Below are positions 34,166 to 55,798 of a stretch of 64,000 nt of DNA, one piece after another; within the stretch, counting starts at the first letter, position 1; each line of letters starts with the position of its first letter. The translations under genes and the position numbers were made by a program. The notes beneath the pieces were generated by a model. That model was not told where the DNA came from, searched no databases, and saw only the letters and a list, made by a program, of their open reading frames with translations. Source of the stretch: Spizellomyces punctatus DAOM BR117 (taxonomy: Eukaryota); the NCBI GenBank assembly GCA_000182565.2, contig KQ257452.1, one strand, 5' to 3'.

Positions 34166-34297
34166 TCGCAAAGACGAAGAGGCGACTGTCCGTCGTTGGC
34201 GCAAGAAGAAAAAAAAAACAAGCTCAAAGGAAGAGCGAGAGCAAAAAGGAACGAGACACCTCTCCCAACACACGTCGCCAAATTTCTTCAAGCAAGG

Positions 34298-34733
34298 GAT
34301 TAGTGTATTGGTTAATACACCAATGTGGATTGAACCACTGGACTGGCGACAACCAGCCCGGAAAAGCTAACTAGCTAACGAACTCCTTACAAGTAACAAA
34401 CTACTACTAGGCCCAATTACACATGCAATACATTACGGTTGTTCTAACCGGGTAACTAGCGCCCACCACCACGAGAGAAATCCTACTCGCCCTTTGATTC
34501 CGAAATTCTTGGAGGATGTTTCAGATACCAAGGTAGATCAGAATTAGACTGGGAATATGCGCGTGGGAAAAATCATCAAGATATACCTGCGATCATAGCG
34601 ATATAGTAGTAGCAGCATTTGCAAGGGGTTATGTTGTATTTGTCGGGCGGACGAGGTCCTCGGCACCAGAGCAGGATTCTCATGATGGACTTGAGAGTTG
34701 AGTGCTGGCAGATGCTTGCGAGTCGAGGGTAAA
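34298..34733 (-). ncRNA. Unclassified structured RNA / micropeptide transcript, copy A
   Basis: Blockwise similarity to 51180-51762; TATA at 34763-34770; covarying hairpins and three-way junction; candidate intron 34549-34586; sORF from ATG 34683 (MRILLWCRGPRPPD...). Ends inferred. Confidence 0.7.
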
Positions 34734-34762
34734 GAAACAAGAGGGAAGAAGAAGAGGGGGGG

Positions 34763-34770
34763 TTTATATA
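34763..34770 (-). promoter_or_regulatory. TATA box of structured-RNA copy A
   Basis: Minus-strand TATATAAA, then a pyrimidine tract and the conserved TTTACCC block ~30 nt downstream, as in copy B. Confidence 0.65.
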
Positions 34771-35619: not shown

Positions 35620-36477
35620 AGGAACAGTTGGCGAAGGGGAATGTTGCGGGTAGACTAATATATATCGATTTAATCCTGCGAATGGATCTGGTTGCGATTC
35701 TCCGTGGACTTTTGGATGATGAATTTTTGTGGGCCTTTTTTTTGCCTGTTGAGATGCCCCTCTGATGTGACATGGGTTCGGACGGCAAGATGATGCACCT
35801 CTTCCTTGAACCGGTTTCGTGAGGAAAAGTCGAAGCCGAGCACTAATGCATGAATACCACATGGCACAACTAAACAGTATGCAGCTCCATAACACGGTGA
35901 AGCAACCCCATATGCAGATTACAGGGAGCGTAAAGACATATGAAAGTGCAAAACGGGGTTTCCCTCGCCATTTGCATTCATGTAAAGGACCCATCTTCTG
36001 ATGTTCGGGTTCCATGAGCCCAAGTTCTCCTTGTGCTGGAGACATCTCACCTTTCTTTTACATTTTCATCTGCCATTTAACTTCGTGATGCTTTATAAAA
36101 TTCAATGTTCTGAATGCCTTAATGGCACCCAGGTTACTACCAGAAGTTAATGGAAACCATCTTGTGCTCACAGATTTCATAAGTTACTTTTGTGTATATC
36201 CAGTGGCTCTGCAACAGCAAAAGTAGGTCCAACTCTGGTGCTATCGCTTTACTTTTTGTCGGGCAGCTGCTCCATGCTGCGACACTCGACAGAGCCAACC
36301 TGACGTTCCTTACGCGTCACCAGGCGGAACGTCGGACCACCCAAATGGCCGACTTTGATATCCCAACCTGTTTGTCAGCGTTCGATTTTCGAAAACACTT
36401 TTGATCGACTGAATAGTTTTATTCATATAATCGACGAACAGACGAACAGATCTGTGGTCAAGCGACAAGCAAGGATT

Positions 36478-38264
36478 ATGACGGGGACTATGCGAGCAGT
36501 AGTTGTCAAAAAGCCAGGTGGGGTTCACAGTTGCTTATTTATCTGATAGTGGCATTATTGAAAACGGGCGAAACAAAAGGCAATGCATCCGGGCTGGCGA
36601 TCGATACCGTTCCCAAACCGAGTCCAAAGGACGATGAGCTACTAGTGAAGGTAACAAACCTATCCATCCATTACAAAAAGGAGGTTCTGACTAATCAAAG
36701 TGAACCCAATATGATAGATCCACTCTTTTGCTTTGAACAGAATGGACATTCTCCAGCGGGACCAGCATTACCCCGTTCCAAAGGGGGCGTCTGATATCCT
36801 CGGGGTGGAATTTGCGGGTGTTGTGGAGGAAGTTGGTCCAAAGGGTATGCCGACGATCGCTCGATTTATAGATTGTGGATCTAATCTGACTTGTTTGGTC
36901 AGTGGAGAGGTACAAGAAGGGGGATAGGGTTTTTGGACTCGTCTATGGGGGTGCCTACGCAGAGGTTGGTTGATGTCAACAAAGTTGAATAATGGTATTC
37001 AGGAAAAGTTGACGTGCGATTCAGTATGTGACAATTTCGGAACACATGGCAATGTCCATTCCGGAACAGTTTACCTTTCAACAAGCGACTGCCATTCCTG
37101 AGGTATGCAAAACACTTGTTTGTTTGTGCTCCACACATGATGCTGATCTAGTCCTTGGACAAAGGTTTGGTTCACGGCATATCAGGCTTTGTTTCTGATC
37201 AACGATCTCAAAGAAGGTACGCCTATGACAAAGGTAGATTTACGCAAACTGCCAAGACAGCTTATTTGTAAAACAGGCGAGGATGTCCTCATCCATGCTG
37301 GAGCCAGTGGTGTGGGGTTATCTGCTATTCAACTTGCCAAAAAGGCCAAGGCGTACGTCCGTTTTGTTTGTCATGAATCGTTATATACCATTCCTCATAA
37401 TTCTTTGTTTGCACCAAAAGAAAACACATCATTGTAACAGCCGGACACGAAGACAAGCTCGCATTCTGCAAATCCCTCGGAGCAACCGACGGTGTCAATT
37501 ACAAAAAAGAAGACTTTCAACAAAAGGTGCGGACTTGACAAATGACTTTTTAGACATGCTCAATGTCAACCCACTGCTGTGATAAACAAAAAGGTGCAAG
37601 AAATCACAAACGGAAAGGGTGTCAATGCCATTGTAGACTTTATCGGAGCGGGGTACTGGGATAAAAACCTGGCTTCTTTGGCAGTGGATGGGCGTATGGT
37701 CCTCTTGGCTTTCTTGCAAGGTAAAGTATTTGCTGATCAGTATTTTATAGAGCGTCAAAGCCTGAGCCATTTGACCTATATAGGCGCTGTCCTCGAAAAG
37801 TCCAATATGGCACCTATCCTTCTCAAACGACTCAAGGTATGACTCGTGTGTTTCCATTCGACCAGACTACAAACACTAAGATTGGCCCGACAGATTCAAG
37901 GATCCACGCTTCGCTCCCGTTCACTAGAATACCAAATCGCTCTGCGAAACCATATTGAAAAAGAGGTCCTACCGGGCCTTGTCGATGGAAGTTTGAAATT
38001 GATTATTGATAAGGAATTTGGATGGGAGGACATTGCTGAGGCTCATAGGTGGGTAAATAGTGGTTTTACGCAAGTGAATTGTCACCAATTTGGGGATTGA
38101 ATCGCTCTGATTGGACTTTCCTTTGTTTTTCGGGACAGGTACATGGAAAGTAATCAGAGTATGGGTACGTTATGGTCTTATTCGCATCACACAGTTTCTC
38201 TCCAGCCAAACTCACTTTCTGATCCGGCGCCTCAGGGAAAATCGTTGTAAATGTCACCAAGTGA
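36478..38264 (+). CDS. NADPH:quinone oxidoreductase, PIG3/TP53I3-like (MDR family), many exons
   Basis: 'LNRMDILQR..YPVPKGASDILGVEFAGVV', 'GGAYAE', 'AIPE|VWFTAYQAL', 'VLIHAGASGVGLSAIQLA', 'IQGSTLRSRSLEYQ', 'AH.YMESNQSM|GKIVV'. Confidence 0.95.
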
Positions 38265-38573
38265 GGGCATTTTATGCACTGATATCATAAATCTGCTAGG
38301 CAGATAGTTAGGATCTTGCAGTGTTAGGCAGCATTTACCAGCCAACAGAGTATATATACGAGGCTTGGACAAAAAAGCAGAAAACAAGAAACTAAACACA
38401 ACTTGGTAGATCAAAGAACAATATATACATCAGACCAGAATGCAATCGATACATGGCGTCCCATTCCCATTTGCATTGCACTCCAAATTATGCAAAAGAC
38501 ATCATTCGCCTTCAGATTACTTATGCAGAACCCGCTGGTATACCCAATAACATACGCCACCTGCATCTCCACC

Positions 38574-39903
38574 TCACAATATGGGAACATTGATCCGGGT
38601 AGATCCATTCGTTGACGCCGAGCGCTCAGATGCGCGCATAGGATAAGAGGGTTGTCTGTTAGAACCCATAGGTTGAGCGTATTCTCTAGACGCCTGCAGT
38701 GGATGCGGTTGCTGAGGCTGCGAAGGTACACCGCGTTCGGAAGGACTATAATGCATCGAGACACCAGAGTCTCGCGGCTGCCGGGTTCCGGCGAATGCCT
38801 CTGGCGTCGCATGGTGTAGATGTGGGTCAGATACAGGACAAGACGCGCTTCTCGGAAGATTCAAGTGTGAAGCATTGTGCGCTGTTTCCCAGAATTCATG
38901 CATCGAGGGAATGGTGCTATAGCTCCTAAACACACCGATCCTATCAAAGAAGGGGTCAGAGAAAGGATCGCGGCGAGATGGATCTTGGGAAACTGAAGGA
39001 CGCTGGCGAGTAATGCGTGCCCGTCCAGTCGGAATATCGGCAAAAGGATGACCCAAGAAACCCTGCAAAAATGGGTCCAGATGCTGAAAGCCGGGGTTAG
39101 GCCGACGTGTGCGGCTATGGGCTCGGAAATCTTCAAATGGATCATGACCTGGGGTAATGATAGCCGCGATCCATGGTCAATTCCCTGTCAAGCAGCGCAA
39201 CCAAAAGCATGGTAAACGGCACATACTGAAAAGCTGTTCCATGACGGAAAATAGCGAAGTGTTTCCAAAGAAGGCTTCAAATACATGGAAAGGATCGACC
39301 GGATGTCCTCTCGGGTGTGCTGAAAGAATATAATGAAAAATCAGTACACAGGAGTCGTTAATACAGTGAACCGCAACACCACTTCACCGGATGGGACTGA
39401 CGGATTCTCTGGGATATCCTTGGCTTGAGCACCTGAAGTAACACGCATGTGGTTAAGCACCTTTCACAAAATGGTTCTCTGAAAATGTCTAGGTCCTACC
39501 CGTGCGATCGTAGTACGCTCTCTTTTGATCTTGATTATCAAGCCAAATTAGAATCAACGATCTATCATGCTCTTCCACCGAAACTTGTTCATTCACTCCG
39601 TACCATCGCTCAACACTTCATATGCCTCAGCTACAAGCCGAAACCGCATTTGAGCTTCCTCAGCATTTTCCAAATTTTTATCGCTGAACATCAAAGGAAT
39701 CGGTATGAGGGCGCAAGTTGATATTCGCACTTCGAGTCAGACTTACGGGTGCCATTTAAGCGCTTCCTTTTTGTAACTACACATCAATACTACATTAGTA
39801 CGTCAATTCATGGCAGGAAGAACCAACCCACTTACGCTTTTTTGATATCTTCTGCGGTGCAGCACTGTTCCAGACCAAGTATATCGTAATACTCTGTTGC
39901 CAT
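38574..39903 (-). CDS. DnaJ/Hsp40 J-domain protein (DNAJB6-like)
   Basis: MATEYYDILGL..EDIKKA|YKKEALKWHP|DKNLENAEEAQMRFRLVAEAYEVLSD, followed by a G/F-like 'DPFHVFEAFFG' region. Confidence 0.92.
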
Positions 39904-40905
39904 ATTGACGCGACGGTGACCGAGATCACAGATGAATGCGTTCAGCAAATCTCTTCACCGTAAAACAAGTAGACAAGTTCGACAGGTAAAGTTGCGGCAA
40001 TCTGCAGTCGCCACAGATGGCGAATAAAACCTCCGTGGGGAAAACGAAGGAATGGCTGCGTAGGAAAGGGCGTGTTACGTGAAGTTGATGGCACAGCTGT
40101 TCATGATTATGTCAGCAGAAACTGCCAGAACTGCGCTTTCGAACATTCCTTTTTGATAACCAGTTGACATGGTCTACCATGTGCAACAAGCAGATGTCAT
40201 GACATGGTATCAGAGGCAGATACACACAAGTGGTACTCTGATACGCAGTCCGTGAGTGCTTTGAGAAGGCGACGTCTACTGAAATGGAGTAGACTGTAAC
40301 GCCTAGCTGCATGCCCACCGTTGAGGTCCAATGCATGGGCTGTTCTTTAGTGCACTACGTTTCTTTCTTGGAATTGACATGCTCATGCGTTCATGCTTTC
40401 TACTCGTTTCTGGCTCAGCGTTACGATTTAATGAACTAAAACTTTAACAATTCTCTGTAACATTGTGCGTAAATACATTGCGACCCTCTTGAAGGCTGCC
40501 ACGAATGACGATGACTCAGAGGGTTTGGGATCGCGCTTCCGTCATCCGGAATTCCCGCTGCCGACCAGCAAAACGGCATTTGTCAAGTTTCCAATTCCAC
40601 ATCTTTTAAAAAGAGCGACTTGCAAAGGTCACTTTTATAACCTCATCTCCATTCTCCACTCTCATACCATCGCAACGTTGCATCGCCACGCCCAACGCAT
40701 AGCCGCTTGGAGGCGATCCTTCGAGCACAAGCACCGAGACACTGCTTCTCAGCTCTCTGCTGCTATAGACAACTTTCGACGAGCATTACCTAAAGGTGCT
40801 GACCCTCGAATTTGCAACGCTCAGAAAGCCCGTACTCTCAGAGTCCCGTTCTTTACTCCACAACGACTTGCCTCATTACGGCGGCGCATTGTTCGACAGT
40901 CCACA

Positions 40906-42798
40906 ATGGCCGACGTTGCATTTGTGCCCCACCAACAACCCAAGGGCCGAAGTTGGTCTTTGTTCTCCTGGACACCGACATCAGTGACGCTGGCGCAGGC
41001 GGCAGAAAACAGGTTGCTCTCTAGATTTCAGTACTTTAAGCCAGCGAGTACCCTCGTGGGAGCTGCTACACCACAGGAGGCTCGTGAAGCTGTACAAGAA
41101 ACAACCGAACTGCCAACACCAACCAAAGACATCTCTCAAGATATTGCGTCGGTGCAATCCACGGAGCCGAACGAGAGTTTGATTGCCCGTGTGGGCCTTG
41201 TAGACGTTGGCGATGGGCAAATGATCAACACACTAGTTATCGATCGAACAGATGAAAAGTTGCATCATACCACGGGTGCTGGTATCCTGCGAAGAGAACT
41301 GAGTCATGGATCAGGCGGCGAAATGGTTCACTTGGAACAGGACGTGGCCCCCGTGGAAGAAGTTGGTCGAACGGGCACAAAGAAGAAGACTCTGGTTATG
41401 GCGCACGGATATGGGGCTGGGTTGGGTTTTTTTTATAGGGTACGTTTGGTGATAAGCTCTCATCCAATACGGCAACCTGCATTGTTAATTCTTTAAGGTC
41501 AACAGAACTTTGCTGGACTGAGCGACGTCTCCGGCTGGAGAATCTATGCTATCGACTGGCTTGGCATGGCAAATAGTAGTCGTCCGCCATTCCCGAAATT
41601 AAAACGTGGAGCAACGGATGATGAAATCGTGGAAGATGCGGAGACGTTTTTTGTAGAATCATTAGAAAAGTGGAGAGAGGCGAATGGTATTGATTCAATG
41701 ACATTGATGGGTACGTATATCAGACTTTCATATTCGCCATGGTTATAATCTGATGCAGTTTTTAATAATAAATAGGACATAGTCTGGGTGGTTACCTCTC
41801 TGCATGTTACGCGTTGAAACACCCTGAAAGAGTCGAGAAACTTGTGCTTGTTTCGCCAGGTACATATCGCATGTTCAAATGGTGCAGCGGCTTGGCCTCT
41901 ACTAAAATTCTCGGATATCAGCCGGTGTTGGCAAAATACCAGAAGGTCAGGAAGCGGCACTGAGACGACGTGGATTCCTACCCGCGCTCTTTACGACGTT
42001 GTGGTCATGGAATGTTACACCCATGTCTGTTATTCGTACGATGGGGCCCTGGGGTGAGTATTTTCTTATAAGATATCTTATTCGATAGTACACGTCAATT
42101 GCTAATGCGCTGATGAATAGGTCCATCACTGGTCCGCAAGTACACAAGTCGTCGGTAAGATGGACTGTTTGGACGTTGAGTGCGAGCCTGGATATTCATG
42201 ATTATCGTTCAGGTTTGCCTACCTTGACCAGAGCGACGCAGACGATCTGCACAGTTATATCTATCATATATCAGCTCAGACCGGAAGTGGAGAGTTTGCA
42301 TTAGCAAGATTACTTTTGCCGGTATATTACCTCTTCGAAGCTTGTTGTTGTTGCATCCTCTAATGAGTGCTTTGTTCCGCATAGGGAGCTTGGGCACGGA
42401 AACCCCTTCACGACCGCCTAGCCAATTTGAAGATGCCAACGACCTTCTTATGTAAGCACCAGTAAAATGTAGACCATCCGTTTCTTTACAATTCTGATAA
42501 CAAGACCATGTCACTTAGACGGAGCGCACGACTGGATGGATTACCACGCCGCCATGAGTGCCGTTAAAGGAATGAAGGTACCCACCCGAATAGCCCGCGT
42601 AGCTGATTCCGGCCATCACTTGTATCTTGGTACGTATAATTATCGTTTTGAGGACTGCCGCCATTTCTGACTCGACTGTTGTGCGTAGATAACCCAATGG
42701 GGTTTAACAATGCCATGATTGCCGAGATGGTTAATAAGGATGTTGCGCGAAAGGGGGTGGAAGATGTTGAGTATGTTCATGTAAATGACCGGCGGTGA
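40906..42798 (+). CDS. CLD1: Cardiolipin-specific deacylase / ABHD4-ABHD5-like alpha/beta hydrolase
   Basis: '[18 protein letters not shown]', '[16 protein letters not shown]', '[10 protein letters not shown]', '[26 protein letters not shown]', 'DWMDY', 'GHHLYL|DNP'. Confidence 0.9.
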
Positions 42799-43068
42799 TA
42801 TAAGGCTGGCGCTCGAAGCATAGATTTTAATTTATAGCGATTATCGTACGATTTATATGCAAGGAGGTTGAATCGCAAATACACGGCGAGTAGATCTGGT
42901 TTAGATCACGTGACAGACCTCAACTTGATGACATCACGCGAATTGTTGAGAAGTGTTCTTTCCTAGCCATTGCGTTTGATATTCCTGCCCTTGTTCTCTT
43001 GGTCGCCTTGTCTATCCTTTTGCATTTCCAAATATTCCATACTTGCATTACCGCAACAATCTTCCAAT

Positions 43069-43781
43069 ATGGCAATGAGAATCAGCAACAAAATCTTGAA
43101 CGGCCTTATTCAACAAGTATAATAGCAATTGACACTTTTCCGCAAATGCCACCTTTAATCGCTTCACATACACTCAGGCTAACCGCGAACTGTCCAATTC
43201 AAATGCCTATCTCTCCATGTCCTTGTGGTTCCAAGACCGTGAACTTCCTGGCTCGGCCCAATGGTGCAAAACCCAATCTGACGAAGAGCGCATGCACGGT
43301 CTAAAGATTTTCGATCACATTGTAAAGAGGCGGGCAAAGGGGGCTTTGGTGCACGCAATCGGGCAACAAAAGTTTTCGTATGATGACCCTTTGCAGATTT
43401 GGTTAGTAGGTCTAAATGTTTTTTGGTTTGCTTGATTGGACATACTGATATATCATTTGTATGTGTAGGGAAAAGGCTCTGGAACAAGAACAGCTCAACT
43501 CGGTTGCCATCATGGATCTCGTCCGACAGGCGCGAGAAGAGGGTGACTATACGACCGACACGTTTCTTCAGTGGTATGTCGCGGAACAGCTTAATGAAGA
43601 AACGTCTGTGAAGGATATTTTGGAAAATGTAAGTCGGTTCTCTATTGTGTGCAACTTCTGGAGTATGCCCTTGTCGCATGGTGGTGACAGTATTGCGTAT
43701 TTGATCTAGGCTAAACGGGTCGCCGCAACGACTGGGTTGTATGTTACATTTGATTCGCAAATAACGAGGAAGCCACATTGA
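43069..43781 (+). CDS. Ferritin, prokaryotic non-haem (FtnA-like) type, 4 exons
   Basis: Spliced: MAMRISNKILNGLIQQ|ANRELSNSNAYLSMSLWF..LPGSAQW..QSDEERMHGLKIFDHI..|EKALEQEQ..AREEGDYTTDTFLQWYVAEQLNEE..|AKRV..LYVTFD; ferroxidase-type residues (E, EE..H, E, Q..EE) present. Confidence 0.92.
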
Positions 43782-44172
43782 GCATGTCATGAGGAAAAGC
43801 AATTTTCGAGACGTTGTCCGCGTTATGGTCTGCTTGGTCGAATGGTTTGTGGGTGGGTAGGGAATATATTTAGGTCTGTGCATAGCATCAAAATATAATG
43901 TAACTGAACCTCTGACAGCATCAAAGAATGGAAAATCGTATTTGTTTTGTGAAATTCGAAAGTCCAAGTGCATCCCAAAAAAAGCCAAACCCGACAAAGG
44001 AGTGTCCCCACCCAAATAACAGAAACCCGAATAACAGAACTATATACATTTCGTTAAAAAGGCCTGCAAGATAGTCTGCTATACTATTCAAGAAGAGCCA
44101 ACGTAACGCCCACCACCAAAAGATATTGAAAAGATCCAAGGCGATAACCTGCTAGAGCCAAAATATGTCCAC

Positions 44173-45370
44173 TTAAGCGGCGTGAACCACTCGTACTTGC
44201 GGTTTGGCACCCAAGAAGGCTCGTTTGAAAGCTTTGGTGAGCTTCTTCACCGCCGGAGATTTCGATTTAACATCAATTTTTTGTGCTTCTTCTCCTTCTT
44301 CTTCATCTTCATCGCTGCTGGTGCTGTTCTTATTGCTTGTGGCAGTGATGATATTAGCGTCCGAGGTTTCCATTGGAGTAATGGATTGATTTGATTCATT
44401 CTCCTCTATTTCTCCACTTTCATCCCCGCTCAATTCATTATCTGCATCGCCGCCCTCATCATCTATCAATTCCTCTGGGGGTATCAGTTTCACTTCTTCA
44501 GCGAATTGAACACGACGCTTTGGTCGATCTGTACTAGGTCTTTTCCGCGTCAAAACTCCAGTTGTTGCCGTCAAAGGACGACATACCACCTCGGTTGGCT
44601 CCTCGTAAGAGTCTGATCCTCGTCTTGAGGCTTCTGCACTCGACACGTCCAAATGGGAACTCGCCGCAGCAGAATCCAGTTCCAGGCCCGCGAGGGCAGC
44701 ATCCAGTTCATCCTTGGCGAACATTCGCCCGGCACCAAATGAACCAGTGCTCATGGATGATCGCCTGGCTGTCATATCGAGATTCGACATTGTGGATGAT
44801 GTCGATGGGGTTGAGAGTTGGGTAAATGATGTCGACGCTTCGGATGGGGAGGAAGCGGCTTCAACGTCGGCGGCGAAGCTGGCGTTGGCGTCTCGTACAA
44901 GCGCTGCTCGATACCGTTTGGACCACCTTTGATATTATAAAATAATAAAAATACTTGTAAGCATTCTCCCCTCGTCAAGAACCATTAAACTCGGTAAACT
45001 CCCATCACGCCTCACCTCAACATGACATACATCCTCTCCATTCTCTCCCGTTCCTCTCTGTCCTCTTGCCCCTCAGCCGGCGCCGCCCGCTTACCCAACA
45101 TATCTCTCATAATAGCGTCATCCAATACACTCCCCCGTCGTCGGGTCGGAGGTGGAGGAACGCTGTCAAGCATGTCGTTTTCGTCCGAAGAATCGTGCTC
45201 TTTCTGCATGTCATCGAGAAGGTGCCCAGTAAGGGTTCTCGCATCGTCTTCATCCGAATGTCGGGAGAGTTTGTGGAGGTTCTCCTCCTGTGCCTCAAAA
45301 ATGTGTGGTTCGGCCGTGGTTGTGATGTGGTGGGTGGGGGAATTAGACTTTGATATGCTTGCGTTCTTTT
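44173..45370 (-). CDS. Acidic low-complexity protein with RVxF-type motif (5' end unresolved)
   Basis: Open frames 45012-45370 and 44173-44930 linked by a GT..AG intron; 'PKRRVQFAEEV' matches the PP1-docking RVxF consensus. Confidence 0.6.
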
Positions 45371-46457
45371 AAAGGACCGTGTTGCTTCGAATACATAAAC
45401 ACACACCGAGTTGCTCAACCCTTGTATGTACTTGAGAAATAGTGCACAAGATATACGCAAACTGAGAAAGTCGGTAATCTATAAAACCTAAACTGCCGTT
45501 TGCAGGAGAATTTCCACCAGGTCATTCTTTTCACATCCTTCCAGGTGTTATCGCAGTTTTTTTTTTGCTCACGGGCACACCAACACAACACATACACACA
45601 ACACAAATCCCACTCAAAATGTCTGGCTCACGTCACTATCAGCACCTTTTGCTCCCTCTTGTCCCTTCATGAACGAGATTTAATGGGGACCACCCACGAT
45701 CTCTTCATTGATGGCCTCACTGAACTGCACCGATACCCTAACCCTCGCGCGTATTCAAGTTATTATTGTTGTCCCAAGCCAAGCATCGCAAAGGAAACCC
45801 TGTTCAGCATCTATATGGTATTCCTTCTCAAAAAAGAATACGATCGATCTCACACACTCAGCTGCTCAGCAACACACATAGGAAGGAATCAATCCTTTTC
45901 TGTCCCGCCTCGCCGAAATGCATACATCCCATCGGTCGGGTCCATGGAGTGCCCAAACAGAAAAAAAATAAGCTCTGGCTTTACTTCAAATATTGTGACC
46001 AACCCATTCAAGTATCCCGGTGGTATGGCATCGAATCAGAATTTACATGCAATTGGAAACGATGCACCTTGTATTTGGTAGACCATGGAGTTCAGATCTC
46101 ATGCATGGAGCACAAAGAGTTTACAAGGTTTACAACATCACATCCCTCAGACGCTGTATGTTGGGGGATGACTCCCGATCATCAATGAGAGCCGACTAGG
46201 TCAATGATCCACAAATTGTGTTACCTCCCCTGACTCTAGAACTTCGAATACAGATATGCGCAAAGCTGAGCAGCGTCCTGCAAGTTTCTTGATGATTTAG
46301 TCAATGGTCGGGGGGAACAGCAAGAACGTTCAATGTAAGCACCGATGCGACAATGAACGTCCATTACAACGATTTCGTGGCGAGGGCAATTCAATAGTGC
46401 TCGCTTGCCATCTCAACGATTACGTAATGTCGGAATAATACCAAAGCGACATTGGTG

Positions 46458-48279
46458 TCAAGTTGCATCGTTCTTTCCCACATTGAATGAGCTCGTGGTT
46501 CCATCTCGCTTCATAATCGTCACTGATGGACCCGTGCGCTTTGGAGGCTGAGAAGCCATGGATGAAGTTGATGACGTTGAAGCTACACGATTGCGGGACA
46601 TTTTCCTGCTATCGTCTTTCTCTGGCCATGCCTCTGCAGGTTTTGAAAGATCCGTGGTTCCGGTATTGTCACGGGATCTCACTTGCCGAGGTTTACTTTT
46701 GCGAGTGTCTGTATCGCCTTCATTGATTACAGCCGTCACTCCATCAGCTGATGCATCGATGAGATCGCCTTCGAGTCGCGTTCGACGTTTCTGACGATAC
46801 CCTCTCCCTTTACTTTCCTCCCTCTCCTGTAAACCAGGTCCATTGCTAGCTCTAGCTTCTGGCGCCGTATCCCCACTAGCGGAGGCATCGTTTTGAGAGT
46901 CTTCATCCGCTTTTTGCTTTCGAGCACTCCCCCGCGGTCGCTTGGTCTCTTTGGCTCCGAGCACAGCACCCAATGAAGCCTTGAATAATCCCCCGGTGGG
47001 AGCAAGGCGACTTCGCCGTTGTTCAGCTTTAGGTGTCACGTCCGTAGCCTCCTTGGAAGAAGCGCCAGATGCAGACGGAGTAGTTGCAGACTTCTTTCCA
47101 ACGGGTGATGAAGATCGTTTGACTATTCCAGTTGGGACGACACTCTTTGTCATGCCAGAGGTACTTCCGGACTTGCCACCTTCCTTGGACTTTGAGGAGG
47201 ATTTCTTCTTTTCCGATCGTCGTGATTCTTTGCCTTTTGCATCTGTGACTGCTTTTGTTTGTTTACTTCCCTCAGCGCGTGACGCTGCCTTCTTTGCGCG
47301 AAGTGCATCGAGCAGAGGAGTCGACTTTGGTTTATCGGGTCCTGCGAGTTGGGATGAGCTTGCTGTTACTATCGAGGTGACGGTTGAGTGCGCAACGCCT
47401 TGCTCCTTCGCCACTTGATCCGCCAACAACGTTCTTTCCAATTTTTCCAGCTGTGTTTCTCCAGTGGCTACACTAGATGCTGCAGCCTTTGCTTCGTTGT
47501 CTTCTTCGAGACTTTTGAGAAATGCCAGAAAATCTGGGTCTGTGATAACCGCGTAAAGAGGATTAGTCTAGTAACAACTTGTCGCAATTAGACACGTTGT
47601 ACAAACCTTGTTCGATCGTATTCATTCTCGGGTCAGGCTTCTTCTTACTCTTTGGAATACGCTGGAAAGGGGCAAATTCAACCACAGCCCGATGCTCAAC
47701 TCCTGTCGCAAAGATGAGATAAAGGTCTCGCGCCTAACAAACAAGCAGGTCCCCATACCTTTGGAATCTACAAAGAGATGACCATTGTATGTACGACAGA
47801 AATCAAGAAGAGCATCGATGTTTTTAAAGTTGAGATATGCTCGAGAGAACACGCTGATCTTGGCTTGGCTGCAATTGAAATGAATGTAAGCTTTTACATA
47901 GGTGGTGCATCTGTTCTCCGAATGCTATATACTATACCTTGTGGCAATCTTTCCTGCAACAAAAGTCCACCAATCCGTCTCACCCAGCCATTTGTCAACG
48001 GTCGTCTTGAAGATCTCTTCGGGAAGATGAGGAGGTAATCTGCGAACGACAATCTTTGTGCGTGGCTTGTTTTCTTTTGCCTTACGACCGGGTCGCTTCC
48101 GTGTTCGGCGTGAGCGTTTCTTGTCATCTGCCTGACTGCCTTTTGAGCGTTCATCTCCAACACTCCGAGTTGAGCTGTGGGATACTTCAGCAGCCGCTGG
48201 AGTCACTGCCAGTTCAGAGATATGTTCTAATATCACAGCAGAATATTCTTTGCTGACCTGCTTCCGCTGCTGTCACCAT
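46458..48279 (-). CDS. UPF3: Nonsense-mediated decay factor UPF3 (Smg-4/UPF3 family)
   Basis: 'KIVVRRLPPHLPEEIF', 'FSRAYLNF', 'GHLFVDSKG', 'VEFAPFQRIP', 'DPDFLAFL', 'TPLLDALRAKK'. Confidence 0.92.
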
Positions 48280-49536
48280 GATGCCCCCAGGAATCCTCTT
48301 TAAGATTGTCGTTATCCCTTGTTCAAACAGCCTGTGGTCAATTCGATGCGTGGGTAAGTGGGGAACGATCGACAGTGCCACATGATAAGTGGCACAGTAA
48401 CTGATAACGCACTTGTATGCAGCGATGGAATAGTTATCTTTGGCTGTTACCACCCTGAACAGGCACGCATCTCAAGGAGATCCGCAAATGCAGATACTGG
48501 TACTCATTACATTTCTCATCGTTGTAAATGTGATGCTCAGACTCTTGTCTAGCTTACATATGGTGCCCATCCCTATATGCGCTATGGTTCATTCACCCTG
48601 GTTCCCAATGTCCTTATGTGTTGCATTCTGTCTTGGATCCAACAAAGTCAATGCTAATGTTGTTTTGCGCAAGGAAATAGTTCCCAATGTTATTCATCGC
48701 CGTCCCTCCATCTAATGCATTGGGCCTGTTTGGCAGCACATTTGTCTTGGCATTCTCATCAATAAGAGCCTTTTGATCAAAAGTTGGAGAGCGAGTTTGT
48801 TAAATGACTTCATGTCCACAACGATTGTAGGCACAGCCATGAAACTGGGTGGCAACGTGACTCCACGTCATGATAGCGAAATTGAACGAGTTTAGCGGAG
48901 TTGATCAGTTTTGGCGTCAAGCAAACAGCCAAGTGTTCTAAAGTTGCAATTTTCACAATTTTGGTTTTCCATCCTTCCGCTTCCATCTATCTCGAGTTTT
49001 GTCCATTCCTGTCTACCTCATTGCCTTTTTGCATTGAAAAAGAATATTCAAAAGCGACCTCAACTGCGACGCATACCTCGACCAGTCTGCGCATTCATCT
49101 CAGTGGACACTAGAACGTTGTGGTCAAGCTTGCCTTCTCGCCAACAATACAGTACAGGGTCTCTTGCTGACAAGCGTATGCCAACATTTGGCCGTAGCTA
49201 GACCTTCCGACGACCATAACGACCCTAAAAGCTTCAAAACCAGAGGAATAAGCTTGTGTGCAGTTAGTTGCTATTTTTAGCCTGGAAACCTCCGAGGTCG
49301 TTGGTGGTTCCCACTTTATGAATACCAAATACGAACGTTTGAATCGCATGCGGTAGCTCAAATTGTCGTCAGAAGGACTGCCACCGGGAAAGGGACATTG
49401 GGGTGTGGAGGGCTACACAGAAAAAGCGAGAAAATTACTGAAGTTTAGCAAAAACCTACTCTCTTTGCAATCATTTTCACACAACCGGCTACATTCATTT
49501 CTGGAACATCAAGTACTTCCATAGGAACAACACACT

Positions 49537-50974
49537 ATGATGACCGATGGATCGTTTTCTATGGAATCAGAACGGAGTGCTTCCCACATGCGTGCTGATA
49601 AACGCCCGGGGGTGCTTGACCCGCTCAAAATGAGATCCACAAAACATCGCACGAGTTACTCTTCTGCATCCTCATCCTCATCGACGACCTCCTCTGTCGA
49701 GCATCACCTTCACGAATCAGCGGAAACAGACGCGGGTGGAGAGTGTGACTTGTAAGTTGTAAAGCTGTTCAGCCATCAGAGTGTTGCGTCAGGTTGTTAA
49801 CTATTAACATTTACGTAGTGGTGAATCAATGTTACCGTCATGCATATCTCCTGCGCTGTATCCAGCTGAGCACTACACATCGCTAACCACATTAAATCGC
49901 TCTCTTACCCAATCCGTTCTCCGATTTGACCAACTCACAACATCATACATCAACCTTCGAAACCAGTTGCGGAACATCCTGGACAGTGTCGAAGAGCAGG
50001 AACGACAATATGAAGCTTATATTGAAGAAATAGGGCAGCTGCGCTTTGAACGCAAGTTTTTGAGGGAAGTGGTTGAGCTGTCTTCGTTCAGGGAGCGTAA
50101 GCAGTCGAATGCATCGGACAAAAGTATAAACAGCACCGGGGCAAACAAGCGATGGAGCTCACCCATGAACACAGATAATGGTGATGGCTGGGGAAAAAAC
50201 GCACGACGATGGACGGTGGGAGGCGCACATTCATTAGGAGCATGTGGTGCTTTCCACAGTTTGCCAACTAGCCCGCGTCTCTCAATAACAAGTTCAACCT
50301 TCCTCCCGCACGTTGACGACGAGAATCGCGTAACGGTAGATGACCTAGCGTCGCGGAAAATTCAACGGGAAGCCTTTGCTGCCATGCTTCAAACTATACG
50401 TGAAACGTTTCTGGTGGGCGCGGGATTCGCTTCGACCATTGGGCCATTTCAAGGCTTGGAAGTGGACTCTGATGAGACGGATCGCTCCAGCTGTCGTTCC
50501 CCTTGCTCTTCCCCCGGCACCCCCGTCACTCTCCTCAACCCTAGTGTTCCGTCGTCACCAAGCCACATCCGCCCCACCCCACTCCCTTCGTACCCTTCCA
50601 ACGAAAAACATGTAGAAACCATACACGCACGAATATCTCATCTCACAAACCTTATTGGACAGCTCGCACCTTCTGTTGAAGCCCTTCGCGAAAGTCTTGA
50701 GGACGTCATTGCAGGCCCCGCATTGGCGTATCGTGCGTGGGTCCGTGAAGCAGAGATTGAACGGGAAATGCTTCGAGTCGAATGTGAGGGTTTGCGAGAA
50801 GCTCGAGAGGGCTCTAAAAAAGTTGTGGATATGAGAGGAGTGAGTGAAGCATCAGTTGGCCTGATTTCGTCTGCGCTAGAGTCCTTGTGGGTTGAGCAAG
50901 GTGATGATGATCACGAAGAATGGGAATCAGAATCGGTGTACTGGTCGTGTGATGAGGGTGACGATGAACGGTAA
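49537..50974 (+). CDS. Hypothetical coiled-coil protein (2 exons)
   Basis: Ser-rich exon from 49537 plus 381-aa ORF 49829-50974 with two similar heptad segments ('EIGQLRFERKFLREVVE' / 'EAEIEREMLRVECEGL'). Confidence 0.7.
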
Positions 50975-51179
50975 ATCTCCCCACAAATGGGGGCCACCTC
51001 TATGTAACTTTTGTTTTTGGTATCTCTTTCATAGTCTGCATCTCCATAGGGGATGTGCGCTTTTTACTTTTATCTATGATTGTCACATTGTCTTGTCAAA
51101 ACGTGCAATTAAAATAAATAGTCCGGTGTCGAGAGGTGGCAGAACGTTCATCTCGAATGTTTTACCATAAAAATTGGTT

Positions 51180-51762
51180 CTACTTGATCATAAGTAGTGT
51201 AGAGGTGACAGAAACTGGCACTAGCTACTACACCAGGGAATAAACCAGCGACAACTGGTTCGGAAAAGCTAAGCTACTACTAGGCAATTATACACGCAAT
51301 ACGTAACGGTTGGTTTTAACCGGATAATTGCCCACCACCACACACGGTCCCTACTAGGCCTTGATCTGGAACTCTTGATGGCATTGAAGCCAGACTCTTG
51401 CATCCAGGAGCGAATCGACTGGGCAGCGTCACAAGCCAGAGGATGTTCAGTGACAAGGCTTGGAGACTACAAAAAAATGCATGTCAGCGACAGAATAATA
51501 TGAAAAGAGATGATGCCATTGGTACATACCAACCAAGCTCAACTAATGTGGCAGCATAATAGTAGGTTTTGTTATCGGATCCGATTGGTTGCCGCTGGTT
51601 CTGATCACGGTTGCTGTCGGGCGGTCGAGGTCCTCGGCACCACCACATCTGCATGCTCATGGTTGACCGAGTCGCAATGAGGTTGCAATGTGGGTCGCTA
51701 TGAGGTTGCAATGGGTCGCGATGAGCGTTGGGCAGATGGTTTGAGAGTCGAGGATGGGTAAA
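51180..51762 (-). ncRNA. Unclassified structured RNA / micropeptide transcript, copy B
   Basis: Paralog of 34298-34733; TATA at 51793-51800; canonical intron 51467-51529 (GTATGT..GCTGAC..TAG); sORF from ATG 51660 (MSMQMWWCRGPRPPD...). Ends inferred. Confidence 0.7.
51670..51725. repeat. Short tandem repeat (~22 nt x 2.5) in the leader of copy B
   Basis: GTCGC(A/T/G)ATGAG repeated three times, with GTTGCAATG(TG)G spacers. Confidence 0.8.
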
Positions 51763-51792
51763 GAGGAAAGAGGGAAGAGAGGGCAGGTCCCC

Positions 51793-51800
51793 TTTTATAG
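51793..51800 (-). promoter_or_regulatory. TATA box of structured-RNA copy B
   Basis: Minus-strand CTATAAAA, ~30 nt upstream of the conserved TTTACCC block. Confidence 0.65.
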
Positions 51801-53136
51801 ACCTTGAGTGTGGCAAAATGGGGTCCAGCTGAAAAGAAAAAAAAACATTACATTAGCATGCCACACCGCAGTTTGGAGAACATTAGCAGGACGCTTTCAG
51901 CGATGGGGGTTCTGATTATGCAATATAATTAACCGGATTGATCCGGATGATAATGGATACTAGTGCCATTTACTGTCAGCTCCACACTATTGATGCATTC
52001 ATTACATGCATATGTGGACCCAGTTTACGGTTTTCGAGACCTATTTCTGACAATTGTTGACAAAGGACATTTACAAGTCGTTCAATGTCGCCTGCGGTAT
52101 GCCATTGAATGCGAACAAAAATGCAACTGAATCATGCTGTCATTTTGTTGTTTACGCCCTGATCTCGCTCAGTAATCATGTTTTGGTTGCATGCATCGTC
52201 CTTTCCAATGTACGGAGGATCGCTCCGAATTCAGGAATTTGGGAAAAAGAGTTCCGCCCTCCAATAGTCCCAATGGTAACAAAGTGGCATCATCGTTTGA
52301 CCACGCACTGATGAAATCCCTCAACGCGCGGACAGCCCTTGCAAGGGGGTACGCGCTACAAGCATCTCCGAGTGTGCTGTGGAAATGCCCCCGCACGAAC
52401 TCAATGTTTGGACAAACCAAAACAGAATATAATCATAATCCGGGAAAATCCCAACCATCACAGCATGCAGAAACGCTGTCAATTCGGCAGTCTGTCCAAA
52501 TCACAAAAAAAAAAACCAACGAAAAGGAGAGGGAGTTGAAGGGACATCCATGGCATGGCTTTTGGGCGCAGATGCTTCCTTTCTCCTTTTTTTCCTCTTT
52601 GAGTATATATCATGTCGTATGTGGACAAATCAGTTCAACCTCCTACTTACGCAATGAACAAAACCGCTTATCTCTTTTTTTTTTTTTTGGCTGTGTTCAG
52701 TCTTTGGTTTTTGAGGAAGGCGGTCGGGAGGTTCACGCCAGCGCGTTCATTGTCCTGTTGCTTTTGACAGCACCTTTGTCTTTTGGACATTTCCGTTTTG
52801 TTCCTTTGTGTTTGAATGTAAACCATTGTATTCCTTGTTTGTCATCGTCATCGTCACATTAAAAAGGAGTTATCTGCTGTCATCTTTTGTTGTAGCGTAG
52901 ATTTGCTGCGCATGAGTCCACAGGAGCACTTTGTCTCTCCTTGCGCGTTATTTTGAATGCTTGGGGGTTGAGACAAGGGTGATAGGCTCATCGACATAAA
53001 AAAAAAAACCTACAGAAGAGCGTTTTTGGATTCATGTTACAGAAACATCTCAAACGGGGTCGACGGGCAACTGGACGCCATCCCCGGCCGACTGTCCAGG
53101 ACGTATTGGTAAACTGGGTCAACAATAAGGACAAGA

Positions 53137-53664: not shown

Positions 53665-54271
53665 ATGTGGTATATAAACGTGTCCATCATGCATGCACTA
53701 AAACCTATTTTTTTGACTTGTTACTTTTAGATCTCAAAATTGAGAAATGGGGGCAGGATCGACATGGGCGATGGGTACGTAGGAGGGTTACGTATAAAAT
53801 CCATGTGAAAGCTCCCATGTGTATGTATGCACATCCTAGGATAACATTCCAAGAAGCGAGTTTTCTAAAGTTTTTGTGTTTTCAGATGGAAATATGTTGA
53901 CGGTGGCCATTGAAGATCAACATGTCGTCCAACACGAATACAGGTAATGGTGCTTTTTACCCGGTAGGGCAGACCAGCTGTAATCTCAATGACTCGCCAA
54001 AACAGCGTCCTCGTTGTAGATGTGACGACCCTCACACCTTCCCTGCCTTATGGAACAGTCTTTTCAACGGTGCAACGATACTGCATTACCCCAGCTGGTG
54101 TTGGTGGACAGCGAGGTGTGAGAGTGCGTGTTCATGCCTGGGTGGAGTTTTCCAAAAAGGTCATGTTGCAAGGTATGCATTTACATTTTTAAAACTCTGT
54201 TTGCAAACGTTATAGTTTGTTGATATTGGGAACGTCGGTTAGATGCGGTTACCAAAACAGCTTTGGAAAGC

Positions 54272-55798
54272 ATGGCGCTTTCTACCCGATACCTTGATGA
54301 AGCGCTCCTTCATCTCGCAGCGGGAGGAACAGGTCGACTACCTTACCACTACGAACGCCCATCCCGACAAACCGATATCCTTCCCGAAGACGTTCTGACT
54401 CACCGTGGATTAGAAACACCACCAGACTCTGGACGGACCTCTCCCACATCGTCTTCATCGACCTCTTCCCGTGCGTCCAGCTCGTCAAGCAGCAGTACCG
54501 ATACATCCACACCATCCACGACATCCTCTACTGATTCGGCGAGACGAAGGCTATACGGTCCACGACCCATTCTGGGATCTGAGACGCCGTCTACACCCGC
54601 TTCGACCATTCACACGACCGTTGGGTCTACACCGGCTGGTATCACACCAACGGGTATCACACCCGGTGGTAGAGAAGCGGCACGGGAAGGATACTTTACA
54701 GGCGTCCCCGTGCCCAAACTCGATCGAAAACCAGTTGGACCAAGACCTTTTGGTGGGTGGCCACAATCCACACCAACAACACCAAAACTCGAGACCGAAC
54801 AAGCGGAAAAGCAAAACCGACATCCACCCATGGCAGTGGTATGGGAAGGCGGAAAATGGGTGGAAGCCCATCCGGCCATCGCTAAAAAGCTCGTCGCAGA
54901 AAAACGAGAAGGGCGCAAGAGGGTGCTGAAGAGGGAAGGTGGAGCTGTCGCTGTTTGGGCTGAAGGACGGTACATTGTCGCAGGGGAACGAGAAACCAAC
55001 CAAGATACGATAAAAGTACAAGCAACCCCCGACACAGCTCTGTCATCACCTATTACATCCACCCATCCACTCGTTACTTTATCTGAACCTACCGCAACAA
55101 AAGACCCACCCTCGAAACCACTTAATGCATCCTACACCCGCCCACCAACTCCACCCTCAGCAGCACTCGTACCCAAAACCCCAGCTGAAGCAGCCGAATG
55201 GCGAGAAGCAGCAGCCAAAAGACTTGAAAAACATTTATCGAAAAAGAAAAGTATGGAGAACGCAAGTGGTGCATTGGTTGGAAGTGGGGAAGGTTTGGAA
55301 TCATTGTCGGGAGTACCGTCACCCCAACTCGTATCTACCATTCCGCAAAGTCCGACTCCATCCGCCGTACAAGTAACACCACCAACAACCCAACCAACTG
55401 AACCGACAACATCAACATCAACAACGGTTATCCCTTACACCCCACCACCCCAATCATCCACACCACGCCCCGTAACCCTCCTCATAACCTTCCATATCTG
55501 CGGTATACTCCTCCTCCTATCCCAACTCGGTTTTTTCGGCATCCTACGATGGATCTACGTCCTCGTATCTTGGACACTCCGTACGCTCTTGTGGAGTATC
55601 ACGCTCTTGTTTTTCCGTCGTACGCGTCCGTCTCCGCAGATTGTACATCATCAGGAACCCATCCCGGATTCGGCGTGCCGTGTACCAAACAAAGAGGATG
55701 ATGGAGTGGTTGTAAAGTGGGGTGAACTTTGTTTTTGGTGGGGTGTTGTTGTGATTGTGGTTTTGGGTGGTGTGAGGGGGTTGGTGAGGAGGGTTTGA
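54272..55798 (+). CDS. Pro/Ser/Thr-rich hypothetical protein with C-terminal transmembrane segments
   Basis: Long intronless ORF (ATG 54272) with hydrophobic stretches near the C-terminus. Confidence 0.7.
   Translation: MALSTRYLDEALLHLAAGGTGRLPYHYERPSRQTDILPEDVLTHRGLETPPDSGRTSPTSSSSTSSRASSSSSSSTDTSTPSTTSSTDSARRRLYGPRPILGSETPSTPASTIHTTVGSTPAGITPTGITPGGREAAREGYFTGVPVPKLDRKPVGPRPFGGWPQSTPTTPKLETEQAEKQNRHPPMAVVWEGGKWVEAHPAIAKKLVAEKREGRKRVLKREGGAVAVWAEGRYIVAGERETNQDTIKVQATPDTALSSPITSTHPLVTLSEPTATKDPPSKPLNASYTRPPTPPSAALVPKTPAEAAEWREAAAKRLEKHLSKKKSMENASGALVGSGEGLESLSGVPSPQLVSTIPQSPTPSAVQVTPPTTQPTEPTTSTSTTVIPYTPPPQSSTPRPVTLLITFHICGILLLLSQLGFFGILRWIYVLVSWTLRTLLWSITLLFFRRTRPSPQIVHHQEPIPDSACRVPNKEDDGVVVKWGELCFWWGVVVIVVLGGVRGLVRRV

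What the first reader, a model, noticed from the sequence alone, without database searches (positions are those of the whole stretch)
51180..51800. Second copy (B) of the structured RNA gene stands alone, convergent with its neighbour
Seen: the same block order as copy A, with TATA at 51793-51800 and a textbook 63-nt intron (51467-51529). Its 3' end faces the stop codon of the + strand gene ending at 50974, so no same-strand CDS follows. A ~60-nt B-specific insertion after CATCCTC is closed by its own TGGC..GCCA stem, i.e. inserted as a self-contained domain. Inference: the element is an independent transcription unit, not merely a 5'UTR motif.
Basis: partly seen in the sequence, partly recalled or inferred. 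Interest (0 to 1): 0.88.

Follow-up and report, generated by a model that had tools for sequence, protein, structure and literature searches.

The report
Fanzor "ghost" transposon with guide RNA
The supposed new structured RNA gene is most likely one copy of an already described repeated mobile element of the chytrid fungus Spizellomyces punctatus that carries the guide-RNA scaffold of the Fanzor nuclease, though its own promoter, short reading frame and intron appear not to have been described.

Summary
The window is Spizellomyces punctatus DAOM BR117. The sequence features hold. The TATA box is at 51793-51799 and the 63-nt intron at 51467-51529 is spliced (927 minus-sense junction reads). 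The RNA is minus-strand, not the 3'UTR of the + gene.

Copy B is not a lone cellular RNA gene. It lies between two 30-nt inverted repeats (51195-51224 and 51960-51989). Its last 74 nt (51268-51195) fold into stem-loop, 6-nt linker and long stem. They match 15 of 18 nucleotides that Saito et al. 2023 name in the SpuFz1 omega-RNA scaffold, the single best site in the window. That paper describes 134 "ghost Spu-1" elements in this genome: repeat-bounded, no Fanzor gene, omega-RNA at the right end. B fits this apart from the CA motif and its length.

Reads and contigs show many paralogs. Four are annotated as hypothetical proteins whose frames disagree after a shared N-terminus, M-x4-W(W)CRGPRPPD.

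Copy A shares the transcribed part but has no repeats.

The element class is known. The internal promoter, short ORF, intron and a conserved three-way RNA domain were not found in the texts I could read.

The parts
51960..51989 (-). Left-end 30-nt inverted repeat of element B (element orientation = minus strand)
   Evidence: pairs with 51195-51224. The longer 36-nt arms are 83% complementary. It is the only pair in the window, and 0 of 100 shuffles gave 2 matches.
51793..51799 (-). TATA box of the internal promoter
   Evidence: sequence; minus-sense depth is 3 at 51780 and 151 at 51739.
51671..51730 (-). B-specific tandem repeat in the 5' leader (23-nt unit, 2.7 copies)
   Evidence: The leader read through in SPPG_09407 is too short to hold it.
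51616..51660 (-). Start of the short ORF: ATG plus 14 codons ending in WWCRGPRPPD, the only part conserved in all copies
   Evidence: M1, W7 and C8-D15 are invariant in 6 of 6 copies; the one A/B difference in the 28-nt block is the third base of an Arg codon (CGA in B, CGT in A, CGC in reads).
51467..51529 (-). 63-nt spliceosomal intron
   Evidence: GTATGT, CTGAC, TAG; 927 minus-sense junction reads. Intron depth is 68, and 59 of those reads carry a changed 3' splice-site base, so they come from another copy.
51379..51438 (-). 60 nt absent from copy A but present in B-like paralogs
51274..51341 (-). Conserved three-way RNA domain: a long stem capped by two hairpins
   Evidence: same fold in A and B separately; 26 pairs, of which 21 unchanged, 2 changed on both sides, 1 on one side, 2 added by a paired insertion, and none broken.
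51195..51268 (-). Omega-RNA-type scaffold, 74 nt: stem-loop 1, 6-nt linker AUUCCC, long stem 2 with a 3-nt bulge. Its last 30 nt are the right-end inverted repeat (51195-51224).
   Evidence: z -2.77, 0 of 200 shuffles fold as well. (15 of 18 nucleotides named in PMC10432273 section 10; unique top of 127,830 placements). (stem-loop 1 covaries).
51180..51194 (-). Flank that would serve as the 15-nt guide (inferred)
   Evidence: contig X2 follows B down to 51195 and then differs. Reads cross into the flank (302 at 51194, 77 of them with B's letter). Contig X1 reaches 51182.
34301..34770 (-). Copy A, a related transcription unit without inverted repeats. TATA 34770-34764; ORF start 34683-34642; 79-nt intron 34586-34508; three-way domain 34472-34401; omega-RNA-like module 34366-34301 with a 17-nt linker and a short stem 2.
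   Evidence: 18 junction reads; no left-end repeat and no upstream similarity to B.

Best explanation
Copy B is a non-autonomous 'ghost' Spu-1 element of Spizellomyces punctatus. This is a short transposon-like unit bounded by 30-nt inverted repeats. It has no Fanzor (SpuFz1) gene but keeps the Fanzor guide-RNA (omega-RNA) scaffold at its right end.

On the minus strand it reads, in order:
- left repeat
- about 160 nt of upstream sequence
- TATA box
- leader
- a short ORF whose first 15 codons are conserved
- a 63-nt intron
- a conserved three-way RNA domain
- the 74-nt scaffold, whose last 30 nt are the right repeat
- host DNA

Shown:
- the repeats and the fold
- the match to the published scaffold
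- minus-strand transcription starting just after the TATA box
- splicing
- reads that run across the right end into the flank
- many paralogs

Inferred: RNA polymerase II makes a capped, spliced transcript that runs through the scaffold into the flank. The 3' part is then cut out as a roughly 90-nt omega-RNA whose last 15 nt (51194-51180) are the guide, and it is loaded onto SpuFz1 made from other loci.

Copy A is a diverged relative of the same transcribed unit that has lost, or never had, the repeats.
For: Organism: the neighbouring + gene is 100% identical to SPPG_02175 of S. punctatus DAOM BR117.

Published description (PMC10432273, sections 7, 10 and 11 read):
- 42 Fanzor loci and 134 ghost loci in this genome.
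- Ghost loci have 30-nt inverted repeats and no Fanzor ORF.
- A 75-nt scaffold takes in the 3' repeat, and RNAs extend 14-15 nt beyond it.
- The scaffold is two stems joined by a 6-nt linker running from A29 to C34.
- PMC13434818 (section 8 read) reports 126 unique ghost scaffolds of 74-76 nt.

Found here:
- A 30-nt inverted repeat pair, unique in the window.
- No ORF over 58 aa between the repeats.
- A fold of stem-loop, 6-nt linker AUUCCC and a long stem with a 3-nt bulge, ending exactly at the outer end of the repeat (0 of 200 shuffles fold as well).
- 15 of the 18 named nucleotides match. This is the only placement with that score among 127,830; 8 placements score 14 and 62 score 13. It lies exactly where the ghost architecture puts the scaffold.
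- Stem-loop 1 keeps 8 of 8 pairs between A and B, with 3 changes on both sides.

Multi-copy:
- In X15, which covers the neighbours at 2-3.3 with eight pieces of 737-2551 nt and no differences, up to 16 different contigs lie on one site of B.
- RNA reads mostly carry non-B letters.
- A/B hybrid joints occur.

Transcription:
- Family-summed minus-sense depth is 10,069 and 1,351 in the two B bins. The best other bin outside A and B has 499.
- Intron junction: 927 reads.
- Plus-strand introns are read by first mates on +, so the first mate gives the RNA's sense.

Contig X2 follows B down to 51195 and then diverges, which places the element's end there.
Against: - The published repeat and scaffold sequences are in figures and supplements that I could not see. 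Identity rests on 18 nucleotides named in the text.
- Three of the 18 (G22, C40, G70) do not match, and one 1-nt shift is needed.
- With 25 offset combinations allowed, a score of 14 occurs 8 times by chance. The score alone is only marginally above noise, and its weight comes from its position against the repeat.
- The conserved CA directly upstream of the 5' repeat is AA in B (51991-51990); a CA lies 4 nt further out.
- The repeats enclose 735 nt, not the published 'around 550'.
- Copy A has no repeats at all.
- Rfam has no matching family.
- A mature RNA of about 90 nt was not shown here. X23 is a long-RNA cDNA library. The 88-nt X1 contig at 51182-51269 may end where assembly paths branch rather than at RNA ends.
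- Most reads come from paralogs, so B's own activity is not separated from the family's.
Confidence: 0.8

Rival explanations
1. A family of small protein-coding genes. The product is a peptide or small protein beginning M-x4-W(W)CRGPRPPD, and the conserved RNA downstream is only its 3'UTR.
For: - Four paralogs are annotated as hypothetical proteins: SPPG_09412, 09407, 08830 and 09019.
- The start codon and WCRGPRPPD are invariant in 6 of 6 copies.
- The only variable base inside that block is a synonymous Arg third position with three states.
- The ORF is the first ATG after the start of transcription.
Against: - After about 15 codons (A against B), or after exon 1 (among B-like copies), the copies differ by frameshifts and end in different frames.
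- Exon 1 is 97 nt in A and 131 nt in B, so the splice phase differs.
- No Pfam family passes threshold.
- In 1.84 billion representatives, the convincing relatives I found are all from S. punctatus; two other hits are dismissed under Tried and rejected.
- This reading does not explain the inverted repeats or the scaffold match.
- It is compatible with the best explanation if the peptide is a short regulatory ORF.
Confidence: 0.1
2. An independent cellular structured non-coding RNA gene. It would be duplicated in the genome and unrelated to mobile elements or Fanzor.
For: - It has its own TATA box and intron and is abundant as RNA.
- Its helices covary.
- No Rfam family matches.
- Copy A has no inverted repeats.
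Against: - B is bracketed by 30-nt inverted repeats.
- Homology between copies stops at the repeat's outer end (X2).
- There are many sequence variants, with up to 16 contigs at one site.
- The 3' module matches the published SpuFz1 scaffold in architecture and in 15 of 18 named nucleotides.
Confidence: 0.05
3. Some other repeated element whose likeness to the Fanzor scaffold is accidental.
For: - The nucleotide score is only one step above the chance tail.
- The CA motif is missing and the length is 735 nt rather than 550.
- I could not see the published sequences.
Against: - The organism, the repeat length of exactly 30 nt, the scaffold length of 74 nt, the 6-nt linker beginning with A and ending with C, a stem 2 that closes at the element's end, and the absence of a protein gene all agree with the published description at once (PMC10432273 sections 7 and 10).
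Confidence: 0.07

Closest known systems
Ghost Spu-1 elements and the SpuFz1 omega-RNA of Spizellomyces punctatus (Saito et al. 2023, PMC10432273; SPu-1 of Bao and Jurka 2013, PMC3627910)
   Same: - Same genome.
- 30-nt inverted repeats.
- No Fanzor ORF.
- A scaffold of 74-76 nt that takes in the right repeat: two stems and a 6-nt linker.
- Flank available as guide.
- Many copies.
   Different: - B has AA, not CA, directly upstream of its left repeat.
- It has 735 nt rather than about 550 nt between the repeats.
- The TATA box, short conserved ORF, spliced intron and three-way RNA domain are not mentioned in the passages and sections I read. The word 'intron' occurs 0 times in that paper. Figures and supplements were not seen.
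TnpB omega-RNAs of bacterial IS200/IS605 elements and their gene-less derivatives (recalled, plus the discussion in PMC10432273 section 11)
   Same: The guide RNA scaffold is encoded at the transposon's right end, with the guide read from the flanking DNA. Gene-less copies depend on a nuclease supplied in trans.
   Different: Here the RNA appears to come from a eukaryotic TATA promoter as part of a spliced transcript with a short ORF. The SpuFz1 scaffold has no pseudoknot (PMC10432273 section 11).
Miniature inverted-repeat transposable elements (MITEs) (recalled)
   Same: Short, multi-copy, bounded by inverted repeats, with no transposase gene.
   Different: B carries a strongly transcribed, spliced unit with conserved RNA structure. 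No clear target-site duplication is present: TA lies inside both ends, but the flanks are otherwise unlike.

Membership tests
Ghost Spu-1 element (Saito et al. 2023) | Lies in the genome of S. punctatus DAOM BR117 | tested here: met
   the neighbouring gene is 100% identical over 100% of the query to SPPG_02175.
Ghost Spu-1 element (Saito et al. 2023) | Two 30-nt inverted repeats homologous to those of Fanzor loci | tested here: inconclusive
   A 30-nt inverted pair is present and unique in the window. Its likeness to the published logo could not be checked, because the logo is in a figure and the supplements are closed.
Ghost Spu-1 element (Saito et al. 2023) | No Fanzor ORF between the repeats | tested here: met
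   the longest ORF between 51225 and 51959 is 58 aa; the paralog's product has no match to any Fanzor chain in the PDB at E up to 10; the longest stop-to-stop frame in the whole window is 524 aa, short of the 638 aa of SpuFz1.
Ghost Spu-1 element (Saito et al. 2023) | Conserved CA directly upstream of the 5' repeat | tested here: not met
   the minus strand reads CATCAA and then the repeat. The two bases next to the repeat are AA, and CA lies 4 nt further out.
Ghost Spu-1 element (Saito et al. 2023) | Conserved region of about 550 nt between the repeats | tested here: inconclusive
   B has 735 nt between the repeats. That includes a 60-nt leader repeat peculiar to B.
SpuFz1-type omega-RNA scaffold | About 75 nt, ending at the outer end of the 3' repeat; stem-loop 1, 6-nt linker from A to C, stem 2 | tested here: met
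   8-bp stem-loop, 6 unpaired nucleotides AUUCCC, and a 16-bp stem 2 closing at 51195. The scaffold is 74 nt counted from 51268. Ghost scaffolds are 74-76 nt (PMC13434818 section 8).
SpuFz1-type omega-RNA scaffold | Nucleotides named in the cryo-EM description (U5 C6 C7, U16-G20, G22, A29, C32, C34, U35, G37, C40, G70, A72, A75) | tested here: inconclusive
   15 of 18 match with one 1-nt shift; G22, C40 and G70 miss. It is the unique top score in the window, but 8 chance placements reach 14.
SpuFz1-type omega-RNA scaffold | An RNA of 88-90 nt that runs 14-15 nt into the flank and binds SpuFz1 | not testable with these tools
   One search shows reads and contigs crossing 51195 into the flank, but it cannot show RNA ends or binding.
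Rfam families | Match to any curated covariance model | tested here: not met
   0 matches at gathering score over the window, and 0 at E up to 10 in 50900-52000.

The most novel reading that the evidence does not exclude
Ghost Spu-1 elements are not inert relics. They would be self-contained polymerase II cassettes for guide RNA. A TATA promoter drives a capped transcript that carries a conserved 15-codon ORF ending in the stall-prone RPPD, one intron, and a conserved three-way RNA domain. The omega-RNA is cut from the 3' end of this transcript.

Under this reading the ORF, the intron or the three-way domain controls how much guide RNA is released, and ghost loci supply most of the cell's Fanzor guides. 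Copy A, which has no repeats but sits about 145 nt upstream of a bZIP gene, would then be a domesticated or immobilised version.
Probability: 0.3. Interest if true: 0.7.

Novelty: already known. Interest (0 to 1): 0.42.

Why it matters
How Fanzor guide RNAs are made in their native eukaryotic host, and what Fanzor does there, is stated as unknown in the founding paper (PMC10432273, section 11). If ghost elements carry their own TATA promoter, a conserved short ORF, an intron and a second structured domain, that gives a concrete and testable route for guide-RNA biogenesis in a eukaryote. The same would follow if family-summed RNA from these elements outweighs every neighbouring gene, as it does here. 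It would also explain why four 'hypothetical protein' gene models of this genome are really transposon transcripts.

For the scan itself the lesson is plainer: the 'new structured RNA gene' is a known repeat family.

Tried and rejected
- **Rfam:** nothing found over the whole window at gathering score, or at E up to 10 in 50900-52000.
- **Own genome:** not held.
- **Metagenome contigs, exact block:** the exact 26-nt ORF block gave 0 hits.
- **Metagenome contigs, degenerate pattern:** a codon-degenerate WCRGPRPPD pattern gave 27 loci. All 27 match only at the pattern itself (19-37 nt by blastn), and most have 55-72% G+C. I judged them chance hits.
- **Longer relatives of SPPG_09412:** none among 43 candidates.
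- **Pfam on the ORF products:** the only hit is a sub-threshold NinE match, E 0.011, 16 bits against a cut-off of 25. Rejected.
- **Representative library:** 5 proteins at E up to 0.001.
  - One is the query itself.
  - Two are S. punctatus paralogs.
  - Two are long proteins of 923 and 2559 aa made of immunoglobulin-like repeats, matched in 6 stretches each. I set these aside by eye as summed repeat noise and did not test them further.
- **Likeness of the ORF to SpuFz1's N-terminus:** no PDB hit.
- **A left-end repeat or upstream similarity for copy A:** local alignments are no better than shuffles (213, 298 and 137 of 300 shuffles score as well). The terminal motif is absent upstream of A.
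- **Guides of A and B as trans targets in the window:** only the sites themselves match, plus one 3-mismatch hit at chance level.
- **Early ideas dropped:**
  - U3 or other snRNA with an intron (no Rfam hit).
  - Box C/D snoRNA in A's intron (boxes absent in B).
  - Solo LTR (no similarity upstream of the TATA box).
  - Lipopeptide pheromone precursor (no CaaX end in a shared frame).
- **Bacterial promoter and terminator scan:** not relevant to a fungus.

Full report
**What is at the coordinates**

On the minus strand, one search shows the following:
- TATAAAA at 51799-51793.
- A pyrimidine-rich leader that holds a 23-nt tandem repeat (51671-51730).
- An ATG at 51660.
- A textbook fungal intron at 51529-51467 (GTATGT, CTGAC, TAG; 63 nt).
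- About 270 nt that share blocks with a second copy, A, at 34770-34301, also on the minus strand.

The + gene ending at 50974 is convergent. Rfam has nothing here.

**Organism**

The + gene is 100% identical to SPPG_02175 of Spizellomyces punctatus DAOM BR117, a chytrid fungus. No whole genome was available to me.

**RNA evidence (window 33900-52000, four runs)**

The raw-read RNA run X23 gave these results:
- Introns of + strand genes are read by first mates on + (for example 155 against 0 at 35222-35304). The first mate therefore gives the RNA's sense.
- A and B are read on the minus strand. Depth is 7,352 and 2,645 in A's two bins and 10,069 and 1,351 in B's. The highest other bin reaches 499.
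- B's intron junction has 927 minus-sense reads (5 plus-sense) and one contig in the root metatranscriptome X2.
- A's 79-nt intron (34586-34508) has 18 junction reads.
- Minus-sense depth at B is 3 at 51780 and 151 at 51739, so transcription starts just after the TATA box.
- The + gene next to B has 0.2-1.5 in its bins, so B is not its 3'UTR.

One important limit applies. At most variable sites the majority of reads carry a letter other than the window's:
- 1767 of 1851 at 51655
- 4669 of 4721 at 34595
- 21,142 of 38,618 at 51252

In addition, 299,669 of the 314,707 laid reads fit only partly, and there are A/B hybrid joints (for example 208 reads from 51298 to 34435). The signal is therefore that of a family. 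Reads with B's own letters amount to roughly 40-85 in the leader and exon 1, and 77 of 302 at 51194.

Of the 68 reads inside B's intron at 51468, 59 carry a changed 3' splice-site base. They come from a copy that cannot splice.

**A multi-copy family**

- Run X15 covers the whole 18 kb at 2-3.3, with eight pieces of 737-2551 nt and no differences. It behaves like low-coverage DNA of the same strain.
- On B's conserved blocks in X15, the summed depth is 95-163, and up to 16 different contigs lie on one site. The tool warns that this is not a copy number. It does show many sequence variants.
- Protein databases hold four more copies annotated as hypothetical proteins of this strain: SPPG_09412, 09407, 08830 and 09019.
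- In an alignment of six copies, only M1, W7 and C8-D15 (WCRGPRPPD) are invariant (plus one later column). After that the products run in different frames.
- Exon 1 is 97 nt in A and 131 nt in B.
- The single A/B difference in the 28-nt block that encodes the motif is the third base of an Arg codon. Reads show a third synonymous state there.

**The link to Fanzor**

A literature search on the organism led to Saito et al. 2023 (PMC10432273). I read sections 7, 10 and 11 and several passages. The paper reports the following:
- 42 Fanzor (SpuFz1) loci and 134 'ghost Spu-1' loci in this very genome.
- Ghost loci have a conserved region of about 550 nt between 30-nt inverted repeats, a CA upstream of the 5' repeat, and no Fanzor ORF.
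- A 75-nt omega-RNA scaffold takes in the 3' repeat.
- The RNAs are 88-90 nt and extend 14-15 nt into the flank.
- Section 10 describes the scaffold as two stems joined by a 6-nt linker (A29 to C34) and names 18 nucleotides.

Bao and Jurka 2013 (PMC3627910, passages) give 33-bp terminal repeats and putative TA duplications for the 2.1-kb SPu-1. PMC13434818 (section 8) counts 126 unique ghost scaffolds of 74-76 nt.

**Test of that lead**

- B is bracketed by an inverted pair, 51195-51224 and 51960-51989. The core is exactly 30 nt, and it is the only pair in the window (0 of 100 shuffles gave 2 matches).
- The 75 nt inside the right end fold into an 8-bp stem-loop, six unpaired nucleotides AUUCCC, and a 16-bp stem with a 3-nt bulge that closes at 51195 (z -2.77, 0 of 200 shuffles fold as well).
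- I scanned both strands of the window with the 18 named nucleotides, allowing small shifts between three segments. That gave one placement with 15 matches, 8 with 14 and 62 with 13, out of 127,830.
- The single best placement starts at 51268 on the minus strand. The scaffold then ends at the outer end of the repeat, as the published architecture requires.
- The score alone is barely above the chance tail. Its position is what carries the weight.
- Contig X2 follows B from 51436 down to 51195 and then differs, which puts the end of the repeated unit at the same base.
- Stem-loop 1 keeps all 8 pairs between A and B, with 3 changes on both sides and 2 on one side.

Points that do not fit:
- The bases next to the left repeat are AA, not CA.
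- The repeats enclose 735 nt, not about 550.
- G22, C40 and G70 do not match.
- I could not see the published sequences themselves.

**Other conserved parts**

Upstream of the scaffold, 51341-51274 (A: 34472-34401) folds in each copy into a long stem capped by two hairpins. On a coordinate-based alignment there are 26 pairs: 21 unchanged, 2 changed on both sides, 1 on one side, 2 added in A by insertions on both strands, and none broken. One annotated paralog (SPPG_09019) seems to lack this domain, judging from its read-through translation.

**Copy A**

- A shares the TATA box, leader, ORF start, intron position, three-way domain and an omega-RNA-like module (34366-34301). That module has a covarying stem-loop 1, a 17-nt linker and a short 9-bp stem 2.
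- A has no left repeat and no upstream similarity to B.
- A lies about 145 nt upstream of a bZIP-like ORF (ATG at 34156).
- No junction of that gene's intron appears among the 15 joints shown, the weakest of which has 15 reads; 43 further joints were not shown. I therefore cannot say whether A's transcript runs into that gene.

**Reading**

B is best explained as a ghost Spu-1 element. That class is already in print, and B, having both repeats, is probably among the 134 catalogued loci. I could not check this, because the supplements are closed.

The internal anatomy appears to go beyond the texts I could read: a TATA promoter, a conserved 15-codon ORF, a spliced intron and a second structured domain. 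The word 'intron' occurs 0 times in Saito et al.. Only two papers in the library hold 'Fanzor' together with 'ghost loci', and both are those cited above.

The step from this anatomy to 'the omega-RNA is processed from the 3' end of a spliced polymerase II transcript' is inference.

**Limits**

- There are two sequences for covariation.
- There is one RNA run with raw reads.
- No genome-wide census was possible.
- Figures and supplements of the papers were not seen.

Noticed in passing
P0001 (SPPG_09412) residues 33-78; in B, exon 1 end and 51466-51379: The product of one paralog shows a weak likeness (E 0.05) to adiponectin receptor 2 across the PAQR signature (P.RF.PG..W...HQ.F) and spans the intron. 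The element's interior may be a captured fragment of a host PAQR gene. However, Pfam gives nothing and no longer relative was found.
   Followed up: partly
window 51189-51194 and 51990-51995: The six bases outside each 30-nt repeat are also partly symmetric (CATAAG and CATCAA when each is read outward-in). The presumed empty site would therefore be a near-palindrome. This may reflect a target preference. CATA, the published SpuFz1 TAM, stands at 51189-51192 on the + strand.
   Followed up: partly
window 34750-34782: Just upstream of A's TATA box there are plus-sense reads (176-307 deep), most with non-window letters. A-like copies therefore seem to share a divergent plus-strand transcript or the start of a neighbouring gene.
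   Followed up: no
window 34891-34944: In the DNA-like run X15, A's upstream region is covered at 18-38 by 1-3 variant contigs, against a baseline of 2-3. A-like copies therefore share sequence well upstream of the TATA box, although no inverted repeat was found.
   Followed up: partly
window 33240-34165, minus strand: A bZIP-like gene with one intron lies directly downstream of copy A. Its basic region spans the intron, and only coiled-coil families hit below threshold in Pfam.
   Followed up: no
window 34508-34549: In copy A, the position where related transcripts splice reads TTGG instead of an AG acceptor. A instead uses an AAG 15 nt downstream, at a low level (18 reads). The X2 and X1 homologues join exon 1 to TATCTGAACATCC.
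   Followed up: partly
window 54224-55798, + strand: The longest stop-to-stop frame in the window (524 aa) has no Pfam family and no PDB relative.
   Followed up: partly
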